This document shows positions 1 through 34,235 of a stretch of DNA of 64,000 nt, one piece after another. A program made the translations under genes and the position numbers. The notes beneath the pieces were generated by a model. The model worked only from the letters and a program-made list of their open reading frames with translations, was not told where the DNA came from and did no database searches. Within the stretch, counting starts at the first letter, position 1, and each line of letters starts with the position of its first letter. The stretch comes from an uncultured Acidimicrobiales bacterium. GTDB taxonomy: Bacteria; Actinomycetota; Acidimicrobiia; Acidimicrobiales; UBA10347. Location of the stretch: the NCBI GenBank assembly GCA_963925805.1, contig CAWUSE010000023.1:65098-129097 (forward strand), written 5' to 3'.

Positions 1-97
1 CCTTGCTGACATGTCAATGCGTGCTGGCGAGCAGGCACGGCCCAACGCTGCGGCAGACATAGCCAACTTGATCGAGACGCACGCTCGTGCCCGTTGA
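1..97 (+). CDS. murG: C-terminal fragment of the upstream dcw gene, probably MurG (partial, runs off the window)
   Basis: The frame starting at nt 2 is open from the window edge to TGA 95-97 (...ADIANLIETHARAR*). The stop overlaps the GTG start of murC at 87. Identity is inferred only from the conserved murG-murC order. Confidence 0.4.
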   Translation, partial: LADMSMRAGEQARPNAAADIANLIETHARAR

Positions 98-2420
98 TCC
101 ATCGCTCGTCCTGGAAGAACTTCGGCCGACAACCCGCCCGATAGATCTGGGTACGCCACGGTCGATCCACATCGTGGGGATCGGGGGAGCCGGGATGCGC
201 GCTGTGGCCCGCATCCTGCTGGCTATGGGTCACACCATCACTGGTTCAGATAGCGCTGGGTCTCGGCACCTGGATGAGCTAGTTGCGTTGGGCGCCACGA
301 CGTTCGTTGGTCATCACGGGTCACATGCAGCGAACGCAGACCTCGTGACTCGGTCGACCGCGGTGCCAGACTCAAACCCCGACATTGTTGGTGCTCTCCA
401 GCGAGGCACCCCGGTCTATTCGCGAGCCGAGATCCTCGCTGCAATCGTGGTGACTCGACCTGCCATCCTGGTCGCTGGCACTCATGGTAAAACCACGACA
501 TCTTCGATGCTTTCGGTGCTGCTTGATCATGCTGGTCTGCAACCATCGTTCATCATTGGATCCGATGTGGTTCATTTCGGTACCGGGGCACGGTGGGAAA
601 CAACAGAGCATTTTGTCGTTGAAGCCGACGAGAGCGATGGCACCTTCTTAACGCTGATGGGTGCCCACGCCATCGTGACATCATTGGACCCTGACCATCT
701 CGAGTTCTACGGGTCGGCCGAACGGCTCAGCGCTGCATTCAGCGGGTTTGTCGAAGGGATCGACGGCATCACGGCGGTGTGTATCGACGACAGCGATACA
801 CACGTGCTGTTGGGCTGCAGCGGGATTGTGACCTATGGGACCGACGACCGGTCTGACCTGTGTATCTCCAGGATCGACGTCACGGAGGACGACACCGAAT
901 TCGACGTGCGTTGGCAAGGCCAGCGACTCGGCCGTGTCTGCGTCGGATTGCCAGGCCATCACAACGCGCTAAATGCGGCGGGTGCCCTGACGATCGCACT
1001 TGGACTTGGTGTGCACTTCGACCGCGCTGTCGAAGGTCTCGCTCGTTTCAACGGCGTCGCACGTCGATTTGAACAGCGAGGAGACCACCTTGGTACCCGC
1101 CTGGTCGATGACTACGCGCACCTTCCGGCGGAGGTCGAGGCCGCGATCGCTGCGGCGAAGCATGGGCCGTGGAATCGTGTTCTGGCTGCCTATCAGCCGC
1201 ATCGTTATAGCCGGACTCAGGCCCTTGGCGCCACGTTTGCCACCTCGTTTCGTGGTGTTCACCATTTGGTGCTGACCGATATCTATCCGTCAGGTGAAGA
1301 ACCAAGAGCGGGCGTCACGGGGCGCATCGTGTATGACGCTGTGGTCGCTGCATGTCCAGAAATGTCTGTGAGCTGGCAGCCGACGTTGGATGATGTCGCC
1401 GGCCATCTGGCCGCCAAGTTGGGCCCAGGCGACCTGTGCCTGACGATGGGGGCTGGAGACCTGACAACAGTGCCAGACATGGTCGTGCAGCGACTCCGTG
1501 CGTCTACCCCAGGTTCTATGGCTTGGCTCTTCGATCTCGCACCGCAACTTATTGACACCATCGTGCGCCACCATGAACCAATCGGTATCCGAACGACGTA
1601 TCGCGTCGGTGGGGCGGCCCTGGCGCACGCTGTGGTCGCCACAATTTCTGATTTAGTGGTTCTCGTAAGCGCAGCAGTGTCGAATCGCGTGCCGATCATT
1701 ATGGTGGGCAACGGTTCGAACATGCTGGTTTCTGATAGCGGCTTCTGGGGGCTATCGATCTCTCTGGCTGGCGAGTTCGACGCGATTGCCATCGAGGCAG
1801 GCACAGCCACCCTCGGCGCTGCGGTGTCGCTACCGGCGGCGGCCCGGCGTTTGACCGCGAAGGGATTGACTGGATTCGAGTGGGCGGTTGGTGTGCCAGG
1901 CACAATCGGAGGTGCGGTGGCCATGAACGCTGGCGGTCATGGCTCTGACATGGCGGCGACCGTCATCAGCGCAGCCGTGCTGGACATGACGACTGGTGAA
2001 CAACGGGTATGGGCCGCTGATGAGTTGTCGTTCCGATATCGCAGCTCTGCTATTGGCAGCGAACAGATCGTTCTGGCTGTGACGATGAATGTGAATCCGG
2101 GCGAGTCATCAGATGGTGAGGCGCTGCTCAGCGAGATCGTACGTTGGCGACGTGAACATCAGCCAGGTGGACAGAACGCAGGCTCGGTCTTCACAAACCC
2201 TTCTGGAGAGAGCGCCGGGCGGTTGATTGAAGCGGCTGGAGGCAAGGGCCTCCGAGTGGGAACGGCGCAGGTCAGCGACAAGCACGCGAACTTCATTCAG
2301 ACTGATCCGAATGGTATGGCCGACGACGTTCTCGACCTGATGCGTCGGGTGCAGGCCCTGGTCTGGGAACATGCTGGAATTAGACTCGAACCCGAGACTC
2401 GCCTGGTCGGTTTCTCATGA
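87..2420 (+). CDS. murC: Fused UDP-N-acetylmuramate--L-alanine ligase (MurC, N-terminal ~470 aa) and UDP-N-acetylenolpyruvoylglucosamine reductase (MurB, C-terminal ~290 aa)
   Basis: N-terminal part has the Mur ligase motifs IHIVGIGGAGM and GTHGKTTTSSM. C-terminal part has MurB motifs: TTYRVGGAA, GNGSNMLVSD, FRYRSS, GSVFTNP, AGRLIE and KHANFIQ. It is a single uninterrupted 777-aa frame. Confidence 0.9.
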   Translation: MPVDPSLVLEELRPTTRPIDLGTPRSIHIVGIGGAGMRAVARILLAMGHTITGSDSAGSRHLDELVALGATTFVGHHGSHAANADLVTRSTAVPDSNPDIVGALQRGTPVYSRAEILAAIVVTRPAILVAGTHGKTTTSSMLSVLLDHAGLQPSFIIGSDVVHFGTGARWETTEHFVVEADESDGTFLTLMGAHAIVTSLDPDHLEFYGSAERLSAAFSGFVEGIDGITAVCIDDSDTHVLLGCSGIVTYGTDDRSDLCISRIDVTEDDTEFDVRWQGQRLGRVCVGLPGHHNALNAAGALTIALGLGVHFDRAVEGLARFNGVARRFEQRGDHLGTRLVDDYAHLPAEVEAAIAAAKHGPWNRVLAAYQPHRYSRTQALGATFATSFRGVHHLVLTDIYPSGEEPRAGVTGRIVYDAVVAACPEMSVSWQPTLDDVAGHLAAKLGPGDLCLTMGAGDLTTVPDMVVQRLRASTPGSMAWLFDLAPQLIDTIVRHHEPIGIRTTYRVGGAALAHAVVATISDLVVLVSAAVSNRVPIIMVGNGSNMLVSDSGFWGLSISLAGEFDAIAIEAGTATLGAAVSLPAAARRLTAKGLTGFEWAVGVPGTIGGAVAMNAGGHGSDMAATVISAAVLDMTTGEQRVWAADELSFRYRSSAIGSEQIVLAVTMNVNPGESSDGEALLSEIVRWRREHQPGGQNAGSVFTNPSGESAGRLIEAAGGKGLRVGTAQVSDKHANFIQTDPNGMADDVLDLMRRVQALVWEHAGIRLEPETRLVGFS

Positions 2421-14566: not shown

Positions 14567-15082
14567 ATGAGTGACACAAGCGATGAAATAGCTAACGAGC
14601 CATTGGTTGAACAAGCCGAACTGGTTGAACAAGGTGGCGCTGACGAACCTGTAACCAGCGTGGGCGAGCAGATCGAACAGCCAGCAAAGGTCATGCGGGT
14701 GGGCGCAATGATGCGTCAGCTGCTTGAACAAGTGCGCCAGATCGAGCTCGACCAACCGAGCCGCGAACGATTGCGCGACATTTACGAGCAGTCGATCACC
14801 GAACTCAGTAGCGCATTGTCACCTGAGTTGCACGATGAACTCTTGCGCCTCAGTGGGCCATTCAGCGATGTCGGTACGCCCAGCGAAGCCGAGCTGGCTG
14901 TGGCTAAGGCCCAGCTAGTCGGGTGGCTGGAAGGGTTGGTTCAAGGCATCCAGGCAACGCTGTTTGCTCAACAGGTGGCAGCCCAACAACAGCTTGCCTC
15001 TATCCGTGGTGGCCTCCCGGCTGGGGCTCCGCCTCAACAGTCAGAACAGTCGTCGCCAGAACTCCCAGGCCAATACCTGTAA
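14567..15082 (+). CDS. bpa: Bacterial proteasome activator Bpa/PafE
   Basis: EQPAKVMRVGAMMRQLLEQVR, AQLVGWLEGLVQGIQATLFAQQ, and the terminal GQYL* (cca ggc caa tac ctg taa at 15065-15082) match the Bpa family as I remember the M. tuberculosis protein. Confidence 0.88.
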   Translation: MSDTSDEIANEPLVEQAELVEQGGADEPVTSVGEQIEQPAKVMRVGAMMRQLLEQVRQIELDQPSRERLRDIYEQSITELSSALSPELHDELLRLSGPFSDVGTPSEAELAVAKAQLVGWLEGLVQGIQATLFAQQVAAQQQLASIRGGLPAGAPPQQSEQSSPELPGQYL

Positions 15083-25134: not shown

Positions 25135-25208
25135 AGCGACAAGGCTAGGAGCAGATGCTTGTGATGCCTGATGGGGTCATTATTTGGTGGCATTCCCAAT
25201 GAGTGCTT

Positions 25209-25341
25209 GGCACCTGACCAGGGTGCCCCTATGCTTTCTGACGTCGGGTTCCGCCACCCGACAAAATGGTGACTAGCTCAGGGATCCGCCGCCCTGTGTC
25301 GCCAAGCGAGCGTCTCCTTTGGGAGGCGCTCGCTCTCTTTT
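25209..25341 (+). ncRNA. Candidate small structured RNA or leader ending in an intrinsic terminator
   Basis: Three consecutive perfect hairpins: GGCACC/GGTGCC (25209-27), GTCGGGT/ACCCGAC (25243-62), and a 13-bp terminator stem (25305-34) followed by CTCTTTTC. There is no plus-strand gene upstream, since the neighbours are on the minus strand. Confidence 0.4.
25305..25341 (+). terminator. Rho-independent terminator (orphan)
   Basis: AGCGAGCGTCTCC, loop TTTG, GGAGGCGCTCGCT (13 bp, one G-U), then CTCTTTT. Confidence 0.7.
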
Positions 25342-25707: not shown

Positions 25708-27027
25708 TTGGCGGTGCTCACACGCCATGACCTTCGTAACGTCGACGGTGACTATGCCTCGGTGCTACCCCGTCCTATGGATGACGACAATGCCCCGCTA
25801 GACATTGTCCGCGGCATCATCGCCGATGTCCGTGATCGGGGCGATGTCGCCATCAACGAACTCGGCACTCGTTTCGATGGGGCTGCGGCTGATCCGCTGA
25901 GGCTTGAGCCAGGCCACCTTGCGGCAGCCGTGGATCGAGTCGACCCGGCTGTCGTCGCGTCCTTGCGTGAAGCAGCTGCGTCCATCAAGGCCTTTCATTT
26001 GTCGCAGAAGAGCGAGCCGCACACGTTCCGGCACAAAGGAATGACCATCACGCAGAACCGGCAACCGGTGGACCGGGCTGGTTGTTACGTGCCGGGCGGC
26101 CGCGCTTGGTACCCCTCTACGGTGCTGATGACAGCGGTTCCTGCACGAGCTGCAGGCGTTCCCGAAGTGGTCGTGTGCGTGCCACCCATGCGAGATGGCA
26201 AAGTCATTGATGTCACGCTTGCTGCGGCGTCGATTGCCGAAGTCGACATGGTTTACGCATGTGGTGGCGCTCAAGCAATTGCCGCGCTGGCCTATGGAAC
26301 GGAGACGATCGACCCTGTCGACGTGATTGTCGGTCCCGGTAATGTTTTTGTAGCGCTGGCAAAACGCGAGGTGTCTGGCATCGTCGGTGTCCCCTCGGCC
26401 TTCGCTGGCCCTTCCGAGATTTGTGTTGTCAGCGATGGGACCGCGAATCCTCGCTACGTAGCGATCGACTTGATGGTGCAGGCAGAACACGGTCCCGACG
26501 GAAAGTCGTGGCTTATTGCCTATGACGAAGCGACTGTCGATGCGGTCGAATCCGCCATGCGAGAACTGCTTGCTGTTGCCCCGCGAAAGGGTGACATCGA
26601 GTCGACGTTGGCTGTTGGTGGTCACGTCGCCTTGGTGCGAGATGGTCGGCAAGCCATCGAGGTTGCCAACGCGATAGCGCCCGAACACCTCCAGTTGATG
26701 ACGGCCGATGCCAAAACAATTGTTAGTGGAGTTCGACACGCTGGTGCTGTGTTCTTGGGCGAGATGGCCCCCGCTTCGCTTGGCGATTACATCGCTGGGC
26801 CGTCGCACGTACTTCCTACAAACGGCACCGCTCGGTTCGGCGGAGCGCTGGGCCTCGAAGACTTCACGAAGGATGTTCACATCGTGTCGGTCACGGACGA
26901 GGCCATGAGATGGGCTGGCCCACACGTTGAAACGCTGGCGATGGCCGAAGGGTTCGACGCGCACGCAGAATCAGTGCGATTGCGGATGGCAGACCTCGGC
27001 AATACCGCACCAGGAGCAGACGTATGA
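25708..27027 (+). CDS. hisD: Histidinol dehydrogenase
   Basis: YVPGGRAWYPSTVLM, QAEHGPD, IAPEHLQL, and GDYIAGPSHVLPT. Confidence 0.95.
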   Translation: MAVLTRHDLRNVDGDYASVLPRPMDDDNAPLDIVRGIIADVRDRGDVAINELGTRFDGAAADPLRLEPGHLAAAVDRVDPAVVASLREAAASIKAFHLSQKSEPHTFRHKGMTITQNRQPVDRAGCYVPGGRAWYPSTVLMTAVPARAAGVPEVVVCVPPMRDGKVIDVTLAAASIAEVDMVYACGGAQAIAALAYGTETIDPVDVIVGPGNVFVALAKREVSGIVGVPSAFAGPSEICVVSDGTANPRYVAIDLMVQAEHGPDGKSWLIAYDEATVDAVESAMRELLAVAPRKGDIESTLAVGGHVALVRDGRQAIEVANAIAPEHLQLMTADAKTIVSGVRHAGAVFLGEMAPASLGDYIAGPSHVLPTNGTARFGGALGLEDFTKDVHIVSVTDEAMRWAGPHVETLAMAEGFDAHAESVRLRMADLGNTAPGADV

Positions 27028-29320: not shown

Positions 29321-30054
29321 AGCTCTATCCAGCCATCGATATTCGCGGTGGAAATTGTGTGCGCCTTTACCAGGGTGATTACGACCGAGAGACGGTCTAC
29401 GGGGACAATCCGGCTGACCAAGCTGCAGCGTTCGCTGACGAAGGCGCGGCCTGGATCCACTGCGTCGACCTGGATGCCGCTCGTAGTGGAGACCAACAGA
29501 ACCTGGCGTCCATCGCTGCGATTGCCGAACGGGTCGATGTACCCCTGCAGGTTGGCGGGGGAGTGCGCACCGTCGAGGCAGCCAAACGACTGTGGGATGC
29601 AGGCGTTACCCGTGTCGTAATCGGGACGGCTGCAGTGCAGAACCCTGAACTGGTGCGCGAGCTAGCGCCGCAGGGGCAGATTGCGGTGGGGCTCGACGCA
29701 TGGGGCACCGATATCGCCGTGGCGGGTTGGGAAGAACGAACCGGCCAGGATCTGTTCGAAACAGTGACATCATTCGCTGATGCTCGGGTGGCTGCGTTCG
29801 TCGTCACCGAGATCGCTCGCGATGGCACTATGGAGGGCCCTGATCTGGACGGACTCAGCAAGGTGCTTGCGACGACCGTTGTACCTGTAATCGCCTCGGG
29901 TGGGGTCGGCACGCTCGAGCATCTCCGTCTGCTTGTTGGGCTCCAAGCAGACGGTCGAAGGCTCGAAGGTGTCATTGCTGGTCGGGCTATTTACGAGCAG
30001 GCATTTACGGTGTCTCAAGCCGTGGCAGCGTTGCAAGAAGGCGTCGTAGCATGA
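29317..30054 (+). CDS. hisA: ProFAR isomerase HisA
   Basis: [38 protein letters not shown], and IASGGVG. Confidence 0.92.
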
Positions 30055-30824
30055 AATCGGTTCGAGTAATACCGTGTCTCGACGTTGACAAGGGCCGCGT
30101 CGTCAAGGGCGTGAACTTCCTCGACATCCGTGACGCAGGTGATCCCGTCGAACTCGCGGCCCGTTACGACGCACAAGGCGCCGACGAAGTTATTTTTCTT
30201 GATATTACGGCCTCGAACGAACGACGTAACACGACCGTCGAGATGGCGCGTCGAGCCGCCGAAGAGTTGTACATCCCGTTCACCGTCGGGGGCGGGGTCC
30301 GCAGTGTCGAAGACGCCCGCAAATTACTTCGTGTTGGTGCAGACAAGGTCGGGGTGAACACGGCCGCTGTCGAACGGCCCCAGGTGCTGGCCGAGATCGC
30401 AGCGGAGTTCGGCGACCAGTGTGTAGTGGTCGCCATCGATGCCAAGCGCAACCCCGGAGCGACCCCTAGCGGCTTTGAGGTCTATATCCATGGCGGGCGA
30501 ACGCCGACGGGTCTTGATGCGGTCGAGTGGGCGGCGCAGGCAACAGCGGGAGGAGCCGGCGAGGTCTTGCTGACTTCGATGGATGGCGACGGCACCCGCT
30601 CTGGCTACGACAATGAGCTCACCCGAGCGGTGGCCGGCGCAGTCGGCGTGCCGGTGATCGCTAGTGGCGGTGTCGGCACACTCAGTCATCTCGTCGAGGG
30701 TGTCACACAAGGACATGCCGATGCCGTGCTCGCGGCCTCGATCTTCCACTTTGGCGAGCACACCGTGGCCGAGGCCAAAGCAGCGCTTGCACAGGCAGGC
30801 GTGACCGTTCGCCCTGTCGGATAG
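30051..30824 (+). CDS. hisF: Imidazole glycerol phosphate synthase, cyclase subunit
   Basis: [37 protein letters not shown], and LTSMDGDGT. Confidence 0.95.
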
Positions 30825-30834
30825 CGTTGCCCCA

Positions 30835-31218
30835 GTGAGCACGATCCACACTGCCAGCGAGAGCAAATCGACGAGCAAGAGTAACGGGTTGAATCCTGAT
30901 GACAAGCTCCCGATCAAGATGCTAAATGACCGGATTCTGGTCAATATCGACACGGGCGAAGGTGAGCGCCGTACCAACGGTGGGATCCTCATTCCTGCTA
31001 CGGCTCAGATTGGAAAACGACTCACGTGGGCTGCTGTGGAGTCGGTCGGTCCAGATGTGCGTTCGGTCGAACTAGGTGACCAGGTGCTGTTCAATCCCAA
31101 TGACCGGTACGAGGTCGAAGTCGGGGGTACCGACTACATCATTTTGCGCGAACGTGATATCCACGCAGTCGCAGCGGAGCGCCTTGAAGAGGGCGGCAGT
31201 ACCGGCCTCTACCTCTAA
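30835..31218 (+). CDS. GroES/Cpn10-fold protein with an N-terminal extension and a C-terminal ...GGSTGLYL tail
   Basis: IKMLNDRILV, GGILIPATAQ, VGPD, GDQVLF and DYIILRERDIHAV align by eye with the GroES segments IKPLEDKILV, SGLVIPDTAK, VGPG, GDTVIY and EYLILSARDVLAV. The end reads acc ggc ctc tac ctc taa. Confidence 0.75.
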   Translation: MSTIHTASESKSTSKSNGLNPDDKLPIKMLNDRILVNIDTGEGERRTNGGILIPATAQIGKRLTWAAVESVGPDVRSVELGDQVLFNPNDRYEVEVGGTDYIILRERDIHAVAAERLEEGGSTGLYL

Positions 31219-31228
31219 GTAGCGCACT

Positions 31229-32779
31229 ATGTCATCAGGACCGAGCCGAGAACAGTTTCACGAGTGGGCCGCGACCTACACCGTCCTGCCAATATGGCGC
31301 GAGCTCGTGGCAGACCTGACAACGCCTGTCGCTGCGTTCGCTCGACTTGTGCGAGATGAACCAGGTTTCATCCTCGAATCGGTCGAGAACGGCGAGCGAT
31401 GGAGCCGGTTCTCGTTCGTAGGCCGCAGACCAAGAGCCACGCTGACCGCCAAGGGGCTCGTGGTTGAGATTGACGGTGATCTCGGCATCGACGTGCCGAC
31501 TGACCAAGGAATTTTGGCTATCATTGACGCGCTGCTCGAGGTTTACCGGTCGCCTATCGTGGACGAACTACCACCAATGCACGGTGGGCTGGTCGGCTAC
31601 CTCGGGTACGACGTTGTACGAGAGATCGAGAGCTTGCCCGATGCGCCCGAGGATCAACTTGATCTTCCCGACGCCTCGCTGATGATCGTTGGCCAGATTG
31701 CTGCATTCGATCATTGGCGACAGCGAGTTGCGCTGATTGAGAATGTGGTGGTGGATGCGTCGATGACTGCCGACGAACTCAACGACATCTACGACGAAGC
31801 GCTCGTTCGGCTCGATGGGTTTGCGGCTGATGGTGCGTCGGGCCTAGACGAGCCACTTCTTGCGCCGCCAAATAGCGACGACCCGTTACCACAGGTCCGC
31901 AGCACGATGTCCGGCGGCGATTTTCAACGCGCTGTCGGTGCGGCCAAGGAGCTCATTAGCGCTGGTGATATTTTCCAGGTTGTGTTGTCTCAGCGCTTCG
32001 ACTTCGAACTCGGCGCAGATCCGTTCGACGTGTACCGGGTGCTGCGTCAGATCAACCCGAGCCCCTACATGTACTTCGTCCGCACCGCTGAGGTAAGCCT
32101 GGCTGGAGCCTCACCTGAGCCGCTGGTCAGGGTCGAATCGGGGCGTGTCATCAGCCGCCCAATCGCGGGAACTCGCCGCCGTGGAAAGACCGATGCAGAA
32201 GATCGTGCACTAGGCGCAGAACTGGCTGAAGACCCCAAGGAACGGGCCGAGCATGTCATGCTTGTCGACCTTGCGCGTAACGACATCGGGCGAGTCATTG
32301 AGTACGGCTCGATGGAGATCGACGAGCTCATGGTGCTCGAGCACTACAGCCATGTGATGCACCTGACCTCACAAGTATCGGGCGAACTTCGCGACGGGCT
32401 TAGCCCGGTGGACGTTATTCGTGCCACGTTGCCGGCTGGCACGTTGTCTGGGGCGCCCAAGGTCCGTGCAATGGAAATCATCGACGAGTTCGAGCCATCG
32501 AAGCGAGGTCCCTATGGTGGTGTCGTGGGGTACATCGACTTCAACGGCAATCTCGACACGGCCATCTGTATCCGCACGATGGTAATTACCGCCGACGGGG
32601 CCTCGGTCCAGGCAGGTGCCGGTGTCGTCTACGACAGTGACCCCGAACTTGAGCACCAAGAGTGTTACCACAAGGCGAGTGCACTACTGGCTGCAGTCCC
32701 GGCGGCCGAACGGCTTACCGCTGCTAGACGAGCTCAAGACAGCGCACGCAACGACACACAAGGAACGGCTTCATTATGA
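31229..32779 (+). CDS. trpE: Anthranilate synthase component I
   Basis: LESVENGERWSRFSF, INPSPYMYF, GTRRRG, MEIIDE.E...RGPYGG, and CIRT. Confidence 0.95.
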   Translation: MSSGPSREQFHEWAATYTVLPIWRELVADLTTPVAAFARLVRDEPGFILESVENGERWSRFSFVGRRPRATLTAKGLVVEIDGDLGIDVPTDQGILAIIDALLEVYRSPIVDELPPMHGGLVGYLGYDVVREIESLPDAPEDQLDLPDASLMIVGQIAAFDHWRQRVALIENVVVDASMTADELNDIYDEALVRLDGFAADGASGLDEPLLAPPNSDDPLPQVRSTMSGGDFQRAVGAAKELISAGDIFQVVLSQRFDFELGADPFDVYRVLRQINPSPYMYFVRTAEVSLAGASPEPLVRVESGRVISRPIAGTRRRGKTDAEDRALGAELAEDPKERAEHVMLVDLARNDIGRVIEYGSMEIDELMVLEHYSHVMHLTSQVSGELRDGLSPVDVIRATLPAGTLSGAPKVRAMEIIDEFEPSKRGPYGGVVGYIDFNGNLDTAICIRTMVITADGASVQAGAGVVYDSDPELEHQECYHKASALLAAVPAAERLTAARRAQDSARNDTQGTASL

Positions 32780-33657
32780 CGATCGATGTTCGAACACAGC
32801 TAGGTGTCATTTCTGGCCAGCGCCAAGCGGTGATCGCCGAAGGTCCCGACGCATTGAAGTTTTTACAAGGCCAACTCAGCCAGGACCTTGATTCACTTGC
32901 GCCGGGTGAGGCTAGTTGGTCGCTGCTACTCCATCCACAAGGCAAGATTTCGGCCTGGTTCAGGATCACCCGAGCAACTAACGACCGTTTCGTTATGGAC
33001 CTGGATGCTGGATGGGCCGACGAGGTGCTCACTCGGCTGAACCGGTTTAAACTCCGCACCGACATCTACATCACGCTCGCGCCTTGGACATCGCTGACCA
33101 TCGTCGGCCCTGGTGCCGACGACCTGGCGGTAGACGGTGTCGAGCACGACATGGTCACTTCGTGGGCCGGTGTTCAGGTTCGGGATGTATTCGGCCCTGA
33201 TCTGAACGAACAATCAGTCGACGTTCTGCCAATGAGCGCGACCGAGCTGGATGCCGTGCGTATCGAGGCTGGCGTCCCGAAGATGGGCGTTGAACTCGAC
33301 GAATCGACTATCCCGGCGGCAGCTGGCATCGTCGAGCAGAGTGTGAGTTTCACCAAGGGTTGTTATACCGGTCAAGAACTTGTCGCACGAATAGACAGTC
33401 GCGGTAACAATGTGCCGAAGCGCTTACTTTCGGTGGTTCTGTCAGGCGATATCGTCCCCGGATCCCAAGCAGTGATCACGGCCGATGATGCCTCGATCGG
33501 GATGATTACTTCGGCGTCGTATTCCGCTCATCTTGACGCAGTAGTGGGCCTTGCATATATCAGCAGGGCGGGCGCCGCTGGCCAGACGGTCACAGTCGAT
33601 ATCGACGGAACTGCAGTCACTGCCGAGCTGCGAGAACTTCCGCTCGTCCGAGGTTGA
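32776..33657 (+). CDS. ygfZ: YgfZ-type folate-binding protein (aminomethyltransferase fold)
   Basis: The signature FTKGCYTGQELVARIDSRG, plus FLQGQLSQD near the N-terminus. Confidence 0.8.
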   Translation: MTIDVRTQLGVISGQRQAVIAEGPDALKFLQGQLSQDLDSLAPGEASWSLLLHPQGKISAWFRITRATNDRFVMDLDAGWADEVLTRLNRFKLRTDIYITLAPWTSLTIVGPGADDLAVDGVEHDMVTSWAGVQVRDVFGPDLNEQSVDVLPMSATELDAVRIEAGVPKMGVELDESTIPAAAGIVEQSVSFTKGCYTGQELVARIDSRGNNVPKRLLSVVLSGDIVPGSQAVITADDASIGMITSASYSAHLDAVVGLAYISRAGAAGQTVTVDIDGTAVTAELRELPLVRG

Positions 33658-34235
33658 AAATGGCGGTGGATCACTACAACACGTTGGGTGTGATCCCCAG
33701 TGCAACCACAGCAGACCTTCGTGCGGCCTATCTGAAGCTGGCTCGGGCGAATCATCCCGACAGGTTCGACAGCCACGGCCGAGATGCGGCACAGGTCCGC
33801 ATGCAGCAAATAAACGAGGCATGGAACGTTCTAGGCGTCGCCCGCAAGCGACGCGAGTACGACGTCAAACAACAGCGACCAACTTCGCGACAGGGATCAG
33901 CCCCAGGATCGGGTTCGGCCTCGCATGGACCGGGCCAGCAGCGCCGTGGTCATGCGCACTTCAGGCCATTCGACGATGGCCCAATTGACCGGTCCGAGAT
34001 TGATATCGATCTCGACAGTACGCCCATAGTCGGAAGCAAGGGCATCCCTCGGTGGGTCACGTTTTTGCCGGTAGTGCTCTTTGTGTTTGGCATTCTCACG
34101 CTCGGATTTGGCACGGTGGTCGACGCGCCCGGCGTGTTCGCTCTCGGCATCGTGTCGCTCGTCTTTGGTGGCGTATGTTTCGTGATGCTGCCGCTTGTCG
34201 TTATGAGCCGCGCCGAAAGAGATCCAGATCTGTGA
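33654..34235 (+). CDS. J-domain (DnaJ-like) membrane protein
   Basis: DHYNTLGV...DLRAAYLKLARANHPDR (HPD motif), and two C-terminal TM helices (WVTFLPVVLFVFGILTLGF and FALGIVSLVFGGVCFVMLPLVV). The likely start is ATG 33660. Confidence 0.75.
   Translation: MKMAVDHYNTLGVIPSATTADLRAAYLKLARANHPDRFDSHGRDAAQVRMQQINEAWNVLGVARKRREYDVKQQRPTSRQGSAPGSGSASHGPGQQRRGHAHFRPFDDGPIDRSEIDIDLDSTPIVGSKGIPRWVTFLPVVLFVFGILTLGFGTVVDAPGVFALGIVSLVFGGVCFVMLPLVVMSRAERDPDL

What the first reader, a model, noticed from the sequence alone, without database searches (positions are those of the whole stretch)
30835..31218. GroES/Cpn10-fold paralog in the his-trp junction ending in GLYL, a look-alike of the GQYL/HbYX proteasome-docking tail
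The core aligns by eye with GroES: IKMLNDRILV, GGILIPATAQ, VGPD, GDQVLF and DYIILRERDIHAV. The protein has a 27-aa N-terminal extension and a flexible C-terminal tail, AAERLEEGGSTGLYL*.

Established knowledge: bacterial proteasome activators (Mpa/ARC and Bpa) dock into the 20S alpha-ring pockets through a C-terminal GQYL with an essential penultimate Tyr. This is the archaeal/eukaryotic HbYX principle. The same window encodes a bona fide Bpa ending in GQYL (14567-15082), so this organism very likely has a 20S proteasome.

Inference: canonical GroES assembles as a heptamer, which would match the 7-fold alpha-ring. A Cpn10-like ring with seven Hb-Y-X tails could therefore be a proteasome cap or gate-opener of a kind I do not know to have been described. 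It occupies the slot where Mycobacterium has hisI.
Basis: inference. Interest (0 to 1): 0.6.

Follow-up and report, generated by a model that had tools for sequence, protein, structure and literature searches.

The report
Roofless GroES paralog with proteasome-docking tail
This small relative of the chaperone lid GroES always ends in the short tail that known activators use to plug into the bacterial proteasome, and it occurs only in genomes that have a proteasome, so it is probably an undescribed seven-fold proteasome partner, although no binding has been shown.

Summary
The ORF at 30835-31218 (+) is real. It is a diverged Cpn10/GroES paralog: Pfam PF00166 gives 65.9 bits, but it falls below every NCBIfam GroES cut-off. 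Compared with canonical GroES it has lost the 10-residue roof hairpin. It keeps the mobile loop (GG-I/L-L-IPATA). It has gained a disordered N-extension and a 13-20-residue variable linker ending in G-(L/Q)-Y-L.

- **Tail conservation.** The tail is nearly invariant: 358 of 360 close homologs have it. Streptomyces and Acidimicrobiia end GLYL, which contains the LYL HbYX motif of Rpt2. Another large clade ends GQYL, the exact Mpa/Bpa motif.
- **Co-occurrence with 20S.** In about 719 Actinomycetota genomes, 294 of 296 paralog carriers have 20S prcA. In the other two the proteasome operon is broken at contig ends. None of the roughly 226 genomes with no trace of 20S genes has the paralog.
- **Co-loss.** At least five lineages inside paralog-bearing families lost 20S and the paralog together. 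Three of these kept the Pup ligase.

Binding, heptamer formation and the effect on the gate are untested. No paper describing this family was found. Databases call it "co-chaperone GroES". This scan had already flagged the same family on other genomes.

The parts
30835..31218 (+). Whole ORF of the roofless GroES paralog ('Cpn10L'), 127 aa plus stop. It lies 10 nt after the hisF stop and 10 nt before the trpE start.
30835..30912 (+). N-terminal extension (aa 1-26). It is low-complexity and S/T/K-rich, variable in length and sequence among homologs, and predicted disordered. The start codon is uncertain (GTG at 30835 or TTG at codon 19).
30913..31173 (+). Cpn10 beta-barrel core (aa 27-113). It includes the first strand PIKMLNDRILV and the last strand DIHAV, which form the subunit interface in GroES heptamers.
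   Evidence: Pfam PF00166 residues 27-112. AF2 core pLDDT is about 88-94. Foldseek top hits are M. tuberculosis cpn10 1p3h and GroES.
30946..31014 (+). Mobile-loop equivalent (aa 38-60, DTGEGERRTNGGILIPATAQIGK). G50, L52, I53, P54, A55, T56 and A57 are invariant in the family. The loop resembles the actinobacterial GroES loop SGLVIPD(S/T)A and is predicted flexible.
31048..31065 (+). Site of the roof-hairpin deletion (aa 72-77, GPDVRS). Ten residues that form the dome roof in canonical GroES are missing in every family member.
   Evidence: Alignment with the genome's own canonical GroES, another actinobacterial GroES and E. coli GroES
31174..31200 (+). Variable acidic/Gly-Ser linker (aa 114-122, AAERLEEGG). 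In the family the whole C-terminal extension after the last strand, ending in the four-residue motif, is 13-20 residues long, and the positions before the motif have 2.7-3.1 bits of entropy.
31201..31215 (+). C-terminal motif S-T-G-L-Y-L-COOH. This is G-x-Y-L with a penultimate Tyr (an HbYX/GQYL-class 20S alpha-ring docking motif). The stop codon is at 31216-31218.
   Evidence: LYL is the Rpt2 HbYX motif. GQYL is the Mpa/Bpa motif.
14567..15082 (+). Bpa/PafE homolog ending PGQYL. It shows that this organism uses G-x-Y-L tails for 20S docking. It is context, not part of the gene.
30051..30824 (+). hisF, the upstream operon neighbour
31229..32779 (+). trpE, the downstream operon neighbour

Best explanation
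The gene encodes a member of an old actinobacterial family of 'roofless' GroES paralogs that serve as accessory partners of the 20S proteasome.

**Shown here.** The protein has a Cpn10 fold. The GroES roof hairpin is deleted. The mobile loop is retained and invariant. A disordered C-terminal extension ends in an invariant G-(L/Q)-Y-L-COOH. The family is confined to 20S-bearing genomes.

**Inferred.**
- Like GroES, the protein forms a heptameric ring through its conserved first and last beta-strands.
- Without roof hairpins the ring is open along its axis.
- The seven flexible tails insert into the seven inter-subunit pockets of the alpha7 ring, with Tyr in the pocket and the terminal carboxylate on the pocket lysine, as shown for Mpa and Bpa GQYL and for HbYX tails. 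This would give a symmetry-matched, ATP-independent cap.
- The most likely effect is gate opening, which would stimulate degradation of unfolded proteins or peptides. The conserved mobile loops may hold non-native clients or contact a second partner.
- In Acidimicrobiales the gene is embedded in the his-trp operon, so it would be co-induced with amino-acid biosynthesis. That fits the proposed role of the proteasome in amino-acid recycling during starvation.
For: **Fold.** PF00166 E=3e-18. The AF2 core is confident, while the N-terminus, the loop and the tail are flexible. Foldseek top hits are Cpn10/GroES.

**Family-specific features** (roof deletion, extensions, invariant loop).

**Tail.**
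- 118/120 (GLYL/GLYI), 120/120 (GQYL clade) and 120/120 (Streptomyces, GLYL) close homologs keep it.
- 18 lineages read directly from genomes all end GLYL or GQYL.
- In 51 members below 70% identity, entropy is 0.14-0.87 bits at the last four positions against 2.7-3.1 bits in the linker.
- GQYL is the established alpha-ring docking motif of Mpa and Bpa (PMC8223512, PMC8755798, PMC13066552). LYL is the HbYX motif of Rpt2.

**Phyletic pattern.**
- Phylum sample of 401 genomes: the paralog is in 121, and all 121 have prcA. It is in 0 of 214 prcA-less genomes.
- Class sample of 351 genomes: 198 of 200 carriers have prcA. The other two have the Pup-proteasome operon cut at contig ends.

**Independent co-losses inside carrier families.**
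- G014 versus same-genus G378: the locus is collinear and the gene is cleanly missing.
- G458, a 4.4 Mb genome.
- Genus g57, G057 and G239, which keep PafA but lack 20S and the paralog.

**Other.** The organism's ARC ends GHYL and its Bpa ends GQYL, so the x position is free. A Cpn10-type ring capping a heptameric protease ring has a precedent in chloroplast Cpn11/20/23 on ClpP (PDB 7EKQ).
Against: - No binding, oligomer or activity data exist, and no multimer model could be built here.
- The gene is never next to proteasome genes. Its neighbours are his/trp genes in Acidimicrobiales and DUF3618 plus a Bcp peroxiredoxin elsewhere.
- Many 20S-bearing lineages lack it: 66 of 187 in the phylum sample, family f20 0/49, and probably Mycobacteriaceae. 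It is also often lost in streamlined genera that keep 20S (g17 5/13, g18 3/7). It is therefore dispensable.
- The invariant GroEL-type mobile loop suggests a chaperonin-related function may persist.
- Co-occurrence among relatives is not independent evidence, and part of the nesting could reflect shared genome reduction.
- Activator, inhibitor and assembly factor cannot be told apart from sequence.
Confidence: 0.6

Rival explanations
1. The protein docks on the 20S alpha-ring through its tails, but not as an activator. It could be an assembly chaperone that templates or guards alpha7 rings, as the HbYX-bearing Pba1-Pba2/PAC1-PAC2 do in eukaryotes. Or it could be an inhibitory or storage cap that blocks Mpa/Bpa access, as the chloroplast co-chaperonin inhibits ClpP.
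For: This reading rests on the same tail and co-occurrence evidence as the best explanation. The only structural precedent for a Cpn10 ring on a protease, 7EKQ, is inhibitory. From established knowledge, HbYX motifs also occur on assembly chaperones. The paralog is dispensable in many 20S lineages.
Against: Loss of the roof hairpin opens the ring axis, which is not what one expects of a plug. Bacterial 20S is known to assemble without chaperones in heterologous hosts (established knowledge). HbYX/GQYL insertion by itself favours gate opening.
Confidence: 0.17
2. It is simply a second, specialised co-chaperonin for GroEL (for example for one GroEL paralog or for particular clients). The conserved tail would then serve something other than the proteasome.
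For: It is a Pfam Cpn10 member. The mobile loop is retained, resembles the canonical actinobacterial GroES loop and is invariant. T4 Gp31, another roofless Cpn10, works with GroEL (Foldseek hit 1g31; function from established knowledge). Databases annotate it as co-chaperone GroES.
Against: GroEL is universal in Actinomycetota, yet the paralog was found in none of about 226 genomes with no trace of 20S genes, and it is lost together with 20S at least five times. It is never adjacent to groEL. It scores far below every GroES equivalog cut-off. The tail is identical to two known 20S docking motifs.
Confidence: 0.1
3. It caps ClpP1P2 (also seven-fold) through its mobile loops or tail, like chloroplast Cpn11/20/23 on ClpP. 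The link to the proteasome would then be indirect.
For: The best PDB sequence match is Cpn20 of the ClpP-bound complex 7EKQ (E=2.4e-16). The mechanism is published. The ring symmetry matches.
Against: ClpP is present throughout Actinomycetota, so this reading does not predict restriction to 20S-bearing genomes or co-loss with 20S. The high score to Cpn20 is explained by the shared lack of a roof hairpin. G-x-Y-L is not the (I/L)GF-type ClpP docking motif.
Confidence: 0.05

Closest known systems
Bpa / PafE (Rv3780; Pfam PF10759), the ATP-independent bacterial proteasome activator
   Same: Both are small ring-forming (here: presumed) proteins with a disordered C-terminal extension ending in G-x-Y-L; one clade of the paralog carries the literal GQYL. 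Both occur only in actinobacteria that have 20S. Bpa itself was found by searching for this tail, and its assignment was supported by the same co-occurrence argument.
   Different: There is no sequence or fold relationship: Bpa is a four-helix bundle that forms a dodecamer, while this protein is a Cpn10 beta-barrel, presumably a heptamer that would match the alpha7 ring symmetry. Bpa is reported in all 20S-bearing actinobacteria. The paralog is in only about 55-65% of those sampled and was not found in family f59, whose size and completeness suggest Mycobacterium (an inference). Binding and activation are shown for Bpa and untested here.
GroES / Cpn10 co-chaperonin (Pfam PF00166; e.g. M. tuberculosis Cpn10, PDB 1p3h)
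   Same: Same fold. The first and last strands that build the heptamer interface are conserved. A flexible mobile loop with a G-(I/L)-(L/V)-I-P motif is retained.
   Different: The roof hairpin is deleted. The protein has N- and C-terminal extensions and a C-terminal HbYX/GQYL-type motif. It is not next to groEL. It scores below all GroES equivalog cut-offs (45 bits against 96 or more). Its distribution follows 20S rather than GroEL.
Chloroplast Cpn11/20/23 co-chaperonin bound to ClpP (PDB 7EKQ; bioRxiv 10.1101/2021.07.26.453741)
   Same: A Cpn10-family ring caps a seven-fold self-compartmentalising protease. Cpn20 domains also lack the roof hairpin, and Cpn20 is the best PDB sequence match.
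   Different: There the protease is ClpP, contact is made by the mobile loops and the effect is inhibition. No dedicated C-terminal docking tail is involved, and the same protein is also the regular Cpn60 co-chaperonin.
HbYX-tailed proteasome regulators (PAN, Rpt2/3/5, Mpa/ARC) and heptameric 11S activators (PA26/PA28)
   Same: The C-terminal L-Y-L is identical to the Rpt2 HbYX motif. As presumed for this protein, 11S activators are ATP-independent seven-fold rings that insert C-termini into alpha-ring pockets (established knowledge).
   Different: There is no ATPase domain and no homology to 11S. No activation loop was identified.

Membership tests
Cpn10/GroES (PF00166) | Sequence match to the family profile above the curated cut-off | tested here: met
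   65.9 bits against a cut-off of 21.1, residues 27-112
Cpn10/GroES (PF00166) | Beta-barrel Cpn10 fold | tested here: met
   AF2 core pLDDT about 90. Foldseek top 35 hits are Cpn10/GroES/Gp31, probability 1.00.
Canonical co-chaperone GroES (NCBIfam equivalogs/subfamilies) | Score above the curated GroES cut-offs | tested here: not met
   Best score is 45.5 bits against a cut-off of 96. All 14 GroES models score below their cut-offs.
Canonical co-chaperone GroES | Roof beta-hairpin closing the dome | tested here: not met
   A 10-residue deletion at this position in every family member
Canonical co-chaperone GroES | Mobile loop with hydrophobic tripeptide for GroEL binding | tested here: met
   GGILIPATA is retained and invariant, and is predicted flexible. 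GroEL binding itself was not tested.
Canonical co-chaperone GroES | groES-groEL operon context | tested here: not met
   The gene lies between hisF and trpE here. In 80 related loci the order is hisF-cpn10L-hisI-trpE. The genome's canonical groES-groEL is on contig C1.
Canonical co-chaperone GroES | Heptameric ring | not testable with these tools
   Only monomer prediction is available. The interface strands are conserved (D32, R33, V36, V112 invariant).
Bacterial proteasome regulators with GQYL-type tail (Mpa/ARC, Bpa) | Disordered extreme C-terminus G-x-Y-L with penultimate Tyr | tested here: met
   TGLYL here. 358 of 360 homologs end G-[LQM]-Y-[LIV], including a GQYL clade. Tail pLDDT is low.
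Bacterial proteasome regulators with GQYL-type tail (Mpa/ARC, Bpa) | Occurrence restricted to 20S-bearing genomes | tested here: met
   121/121 and 198/200 carriers have prcA. The two exceptions are explained by contig breaks. The paralog is in 0 of 214 prcA-less genomes in the phylum sample.
Bacterial proteasome regulators with GQYL-type tail (Mpa/ARC, Bpa) | Physical binding to the 20S alpha-ring and an effect on degradation | not testable with these tools
   This needs biochemistry or a multimer model.
Bpa/PafE (PF10759) | Homology to the Bpa four-helix-bundle family | tested here: not met
   The only Pfam hit is PF00166. PF10759 hits other genes: window 14567-15082 and C12:80560-80964.

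The most novel reading that the evidence does not exclude
The protein is a two-faced adaptor. Its invariant GroES-type mobile loops would engage GroEL (or non-native clients released by it), while its seven HbYX/GQYL tails engage the 20S alpha-ring. This would physically couple the chaperonin to the proteasome and decide between refolding and degradation. In Acidimicrobiales it would be switched on together with amino-acid biosynthesis genes during starvation.
Probability: 0.1. Interest if true: 0.92.

Novelty: new variant of a known kind. Interest (0 to 1): 0.72.

Why it matters
For M. tuberculosis, a 2026 paper still lists only two regulatory particles that interact with the 20S core, Mpa and Bpa; Cpa is a third reported interactor. 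All three were found in mycobacteria, which appear to lack this family. A GroES-fold ring with seven docking tails would be the first symmetry-matched, 11S-like cap of a bacterial proteasome. It would also be an example of a chaperonin lid recruited to a protease.

The family is widespread. It was found in about 30% of sampled Actinomycetota genomes, including every sampled Streptomyces genome. It can be tested directly with recombinant proteins and in a tractable, non-pathogenic host. It also corrects a systematic annotation error: thousands of entries labelled 'co-chaperone GroES'.

Tried and rejected
- **Literature.** Ten full-text searches (GQYL/GLYL/HbYX with GroES, Cpn10 or chaperonin; GroES-like with 20S; and others) found no description of this family. 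The library lacks many subscription papers, so this is not proof of absence.
- **Synteny with proteasome genes.** None was found, in Acidimicrobiales or elsewhere.
- **The idea that the gene replaces hisI.** Rejected: both genes are present in most relatives.
- **A possible paralog relic in the proteasome-less genome G042** (45 bits). It is the canonical groES next to groEL.
- **The two apparent exceptions (paralog without prcA).** G577 has prcB cut by a contig end. G613 has dop-pup and pafA at contig ends, with an EndoVII-like insertion after pup, so prcBA most likely lies in the assembly gap. This is not proven.
- **Locus comparison of G239 with G182.** The region is rearranged, so no clean-deletion argument is possible there.
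- **Complementarity with Cpa.** TIGR01243 gives only single-AAA hits in this genome. This was not pursued.
- **Promoter/terminator scan.** It shows nothing between hisF, the paralog and trpE.
- **Heptamer or heptamer-plus-alpha-ring modelling.** Not possible, because the structure tool folds single chains only.
- **Organism names for other clades.** The single genome-contig scan returned only Acidimicrobiales. Streptomyces was identified through the third homolog search instead.

Full report
**1. The observation**

The ORF at 30835..31218 (+) encodes 127 aa. It starts 10 nt after the hisF stop and ends 10 nt before the trpE start. No terminator-like or promoter-like site lies in between.

- Pfam Cpn10 (PF00166) matches residues 27-112 at 65.9 bits.
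- Every NCBIfam GroES model scores far below its cut-off; the best is 45.5 bits against 96.
- The genome also has a canonical groES-groEL pair on another contig (108 bits to PF00166).
- It has a Pup-proteasome operon, dop-pup-prcB-prcA-pafA.
- The window's Bpa homolog (14567-15082; PF10759 at 184.9 bits) ends PGQYL.

It is a diverged second Cpn10 in an organism that has a 20S proteasome. Related loci carry titles such as Acidimicrobiales, Microthrixaceae and Iamiaceae, so the organism belongs to the Acidimicrobiales.

**2. Anatomy**

I aligned the paralog with the genome's own GroES, another actinobacterial GroES and E. coli GroES. Every family member shows the following:

- (a) It keeps the first strand (P-I-K/R-M-L-x-D-R-I/L-L-V) and the last strand (D-I/V-H/Q-A-V). 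These build the subunit interface in GroES.
- (b) It keeps a mobile loop, G-G-(I/L)-(L/V)-I-P-A-T-A, very like the actinobacterial GroES loop S-G-L-V-I-P-D-(S/T)-A. This loop is the most invariant part of the protein: G50, L52, I53, P54, A55, T56 and A57 are invariant in 48 sequences.
- (c) It lacks the 10 residues of the roof hairpin.
- (d) It has a variable, low-complexity N-extension of 20-35 aa. In one clade this is basic (KPRKPRARK).
- (e) It has a C-terminal extension.

An AlphaFold2 monomer model built from a 48-sequence alignment gives a confident beta-core (pLDDT about 88-94 for residues 61-110). Confidence is low for residues 1-20, for the loop at 41-50 and for the tail. Foldseek returns M. 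tuberculosis Cpn10 (1p3h), GroES, T4 Gp31 and the Cpn20/Cpn11/Cpn23 chains of 7EKQ.

**3. The tail**

- Among the 120 closest cluster representatives, 109 end GLYL and 9 end GLYI.
- Among 150 representatives of 50%-identity clusters, all those complete at the C-terminus end GLYL (82), GMYL, CLYL, GLYV or GQYL. The rest are fragments or frameshifted.
- A large clade (family f40 and several others in the genome sample) ends P-G-Q-Y-L. This holds for 120 of 120 close homologs and for 8 of 10 further lineages read directly from genomes; the other two end GLYL.
- 120 of 120 Streptomyces-type homologs end (S/A/T)-T-G-L-Y-L.
- In 51 members sharing less than 70% identity, right-aligned entropy is 0.42, 0.28, 0.87 and 0.14 bits at positions -1 to -4. 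It is 2.7-3.1 bits at positions -6 to -12. The C-terminal extension after the last strand (linker plus motif) varies from 13 to 20 residues.

This is the signature of a functional C-terminal peptide motif on a flexible tether.

- GQYL is the established proteasome-interaction motif of Mpa/ARC and Bpa. It inserts between alpha-subunits and triggers gate opening (PMC8223512, PMC8755798, PMC13066552).
- L-Y-L is the strictly conserved HbYX motif of the eukaryotic ATPase Rpt2.
- In this genome ARC ends GHYL, Bpa ends GQYL and a second Bpa-like protein ends SGYL. The x position is therefore free, and the paralog's Leu is unremarkable.

**4. Phyletic test**

Paralog hits (at least 73 bits) and canonical GroES hits (at most 45 bits) separate cleanly.

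*Phylum sample.* This covered 401 Actinomycetota genomes at least 90% complete.
- The paralog is present in 121 genomes.
- prcA (TIGR03691, no false hits in the control genomes) is present in 187.
- All 121 paralog carriers have prcA.
- None of the 214 prcA-less genomes has the paralog.
- 66 genomes have prcA without the paralog.

*Class sample.* This covered 351 Acidimicrobiia genomes. Of 200 carriers, 198 have prcA. The two others are fragmented MAGs.
- In G577, prcB runs off a contig end.
- In G613, dop-pup sits at one contig end, followed by an inserted endonuclease-VII-like gene, and pafA sits at another. The prcB-prcA segment would therefore fall in the gap.

*Combined.* Together the two samples contain about 719 distinct genomes and 296 carriers. 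There is no confirmed case of the paralog without 20S.

*Co-losses.* Relatives are not independent, so the more telling result is the set of co-losses inside carrier families.
- G014 (2.0 Mb, 100% complete, 2 contigs) lacks prcAB, PafA, Bpa and the paralog. Its congener G378 has all of them. The two loci are collinear (nth - small ORF - [paralog] - trpE), and the gene is cleanly absent in G014.
- G458 (4.4 Mb, 100% complete) lacks 20S, PafA and the paralog, in a family where 21 other sampled genomes have it.
- Genus g57 (three genomes), G057 and G239 keep PafA but lack 20S and lack the paralog. Members of the same families have both. The one suspicious hit there was the canonical groES next to groEL.

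So the paralog follows the 20S core itself, not pupylation and not GroEL or ClpP, which are ubiquitous.

The dependence runs one way. The paralog is often lost while 20S stays: family f20 0/49, streamlined genera g17 5/13 and g18 3/7, G018, and several large families. That is what one expects of an accessory factor.

**5. Context**

In 80 Acidimicrobiales loci the dominant order is hisH-hisA-hisF-cpn10L-hisI-trpE-ygfZ. The window's genome lacks hisI at this site and has only a divergent copy on another contig.

Outside the order the gene is not near his or trp genes. In Streptomyces-type and two other lineages it follows a DUF3618 gene and lies near a Bcp peroxiredoxin. In the GQYL clade its neighbours are again different. 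The his-trp embedding is therefore lineage-specific. It may still matter for regulation: the proteasome has been proposed to recycle amino acids under starvation (Elharar et al. 2014, as cited in PMC6466877). That link is inference only.

**6. Mechanism and rivals**

*Best explanation (about 0.6).* The protein forms a heptameric, axially open Cpn10 ring that docks with seven tethered HbYX/GQYL tails into the seven alpha-ring pockets of 20S, most likely opening the gate.
- Shown: the fold, the roof deletion, tail conservation, restriction to 20S genomes and co-loss.
- Inferred: the heptamer, docking and the effect on the gate.

*Rivals.*
- The same docking, but as an assembly chaperone or inhibitory cap (0.17). 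The only structural precedent for a Cpn10 ring on a protease, Cpn11/20/23 on chloroplast ClpP, is inhibitory.
- A specialised GroEL co-chaperonin (0.10). The invariant mobile loop favours this; the phyletic pattern contradicts it.
- A ClpP cap (0.05). The distribution contradicts this.

*The retained mobile loop.* This is the main unexplained feature. It motivates the most novel reading, a GroEL-to-proteasome adaptor (about 0.1).

**7. Known or new**

Sequence databases name these proteins 'co-chaperone GroES', 'GroES family chaperonin' or '10 kDa chaperonin', for example in Streptomyces albus, S. venezuelae and S. noursei. No paper in the searchable library connects a Cpn10 protein with the bacterial proteasome. 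A March 2026 paper still lists Mpa and Bpa as the two known regulatory particles of M. tuberculosis.

The docking principle is known. The scaffold and the presumed seven-fold symmetry match are not. I therefore rate it a new variant of a known kind.

This scan has already flagged the same family on several other genomes, with follow-up agents reaching the same qualitative conclusion.
- the quantified nesting within 20S genomes;
- the co-loss contrasts, including lineages that keep PafA;
- the Streptomyces orthologs;
- the identity of LYL with the Rpt2 HbYX motif;
- the ClpP-Cpn20 precedent.

**8. Limits**

- There are no experimental data and no multimer model.
- The genome samples are samples.
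- Family and genus handles are anonymous, except where homolog names identify Streptomyces.
- The start codon is uncertain.

Noticed in passing
own genome contig C12:80560-80964 (-), outside the window: A second, diverged Bpa-like gene (PF10759 at 108 bits) ends ...PAVPDSGYL. It has a penultimate Tyr but is not G-x-Y-L. The genome therefore has four proteins with a Y-L end of this type: ARC (GHYL), Bpa (GQYL), Bpa2 (SGYL) and the GroES paralog (GLYL).
   Followed up: partly
window 30824-31229; own genome C31:19075-19395: hisI is missing from the hisF-trpE junction where most Acidimicrobiales have it. The only hisI-like gene in the genome is a divergent copy (35% identity to a relative's HisI), about 15 kb downstream of the Pup-proteasome operon on contig C31.
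   Followed up: partly
L130 (G613:C196) 1-610, minus strand: In a related MAG, an endonuclease-VII-like (Cys-rich, HNH-type) gene sits directly after pup, where prcB normally follows, and the contig ends there. This may be a mobile insertion in the Pup-proteasome operon.
   Followed up: no
L015:3419-3769 (-), L016:3362-3700 (-); L015:3387-4460 (+), L119:5128-6525 (-): In Streptomyces-type and another lineage, the paralog is immediately preceded on the same strand by a small DUF3618 gene. In Streptomyces-type and a third lineage, a Bcp/AhpC-type peroxiredoxin lies next to it. This recalls bcpB next to trpE in M. tuberculosis (from memory).
   Followed up: partly
window 25207-25334 (+): A promoter-like site overlaps and is followed by a strong terminator-like hairpin (13 pairs, 9 of them G-C, then a T-rich stretch), about 370 nt upstream of the hisD-like ORF (25708-27027). 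It may be a leader or attenuator of the his operon.
   Followed up: no
window 32776-34235 (+): trpE is followed by a YgfZ/GcvT-like folate-binding gene (32776-33657), and then by a J-domain protein with a C-terminal membrane segment (33654-34235), before trpC. This is an unusual content for a trp operon.
   Followed up: no
L022:4386-4715 (-) and L027 (G014) equivalent: A conserved small ORF of about 80-109 aa with no Pfam match (...AIRDPxNADAGDDLLTAIYEAERG...) lies directly upstream of the paralog in genus g7. It is retained in the congener that lost the paralog.
   Followed up: no
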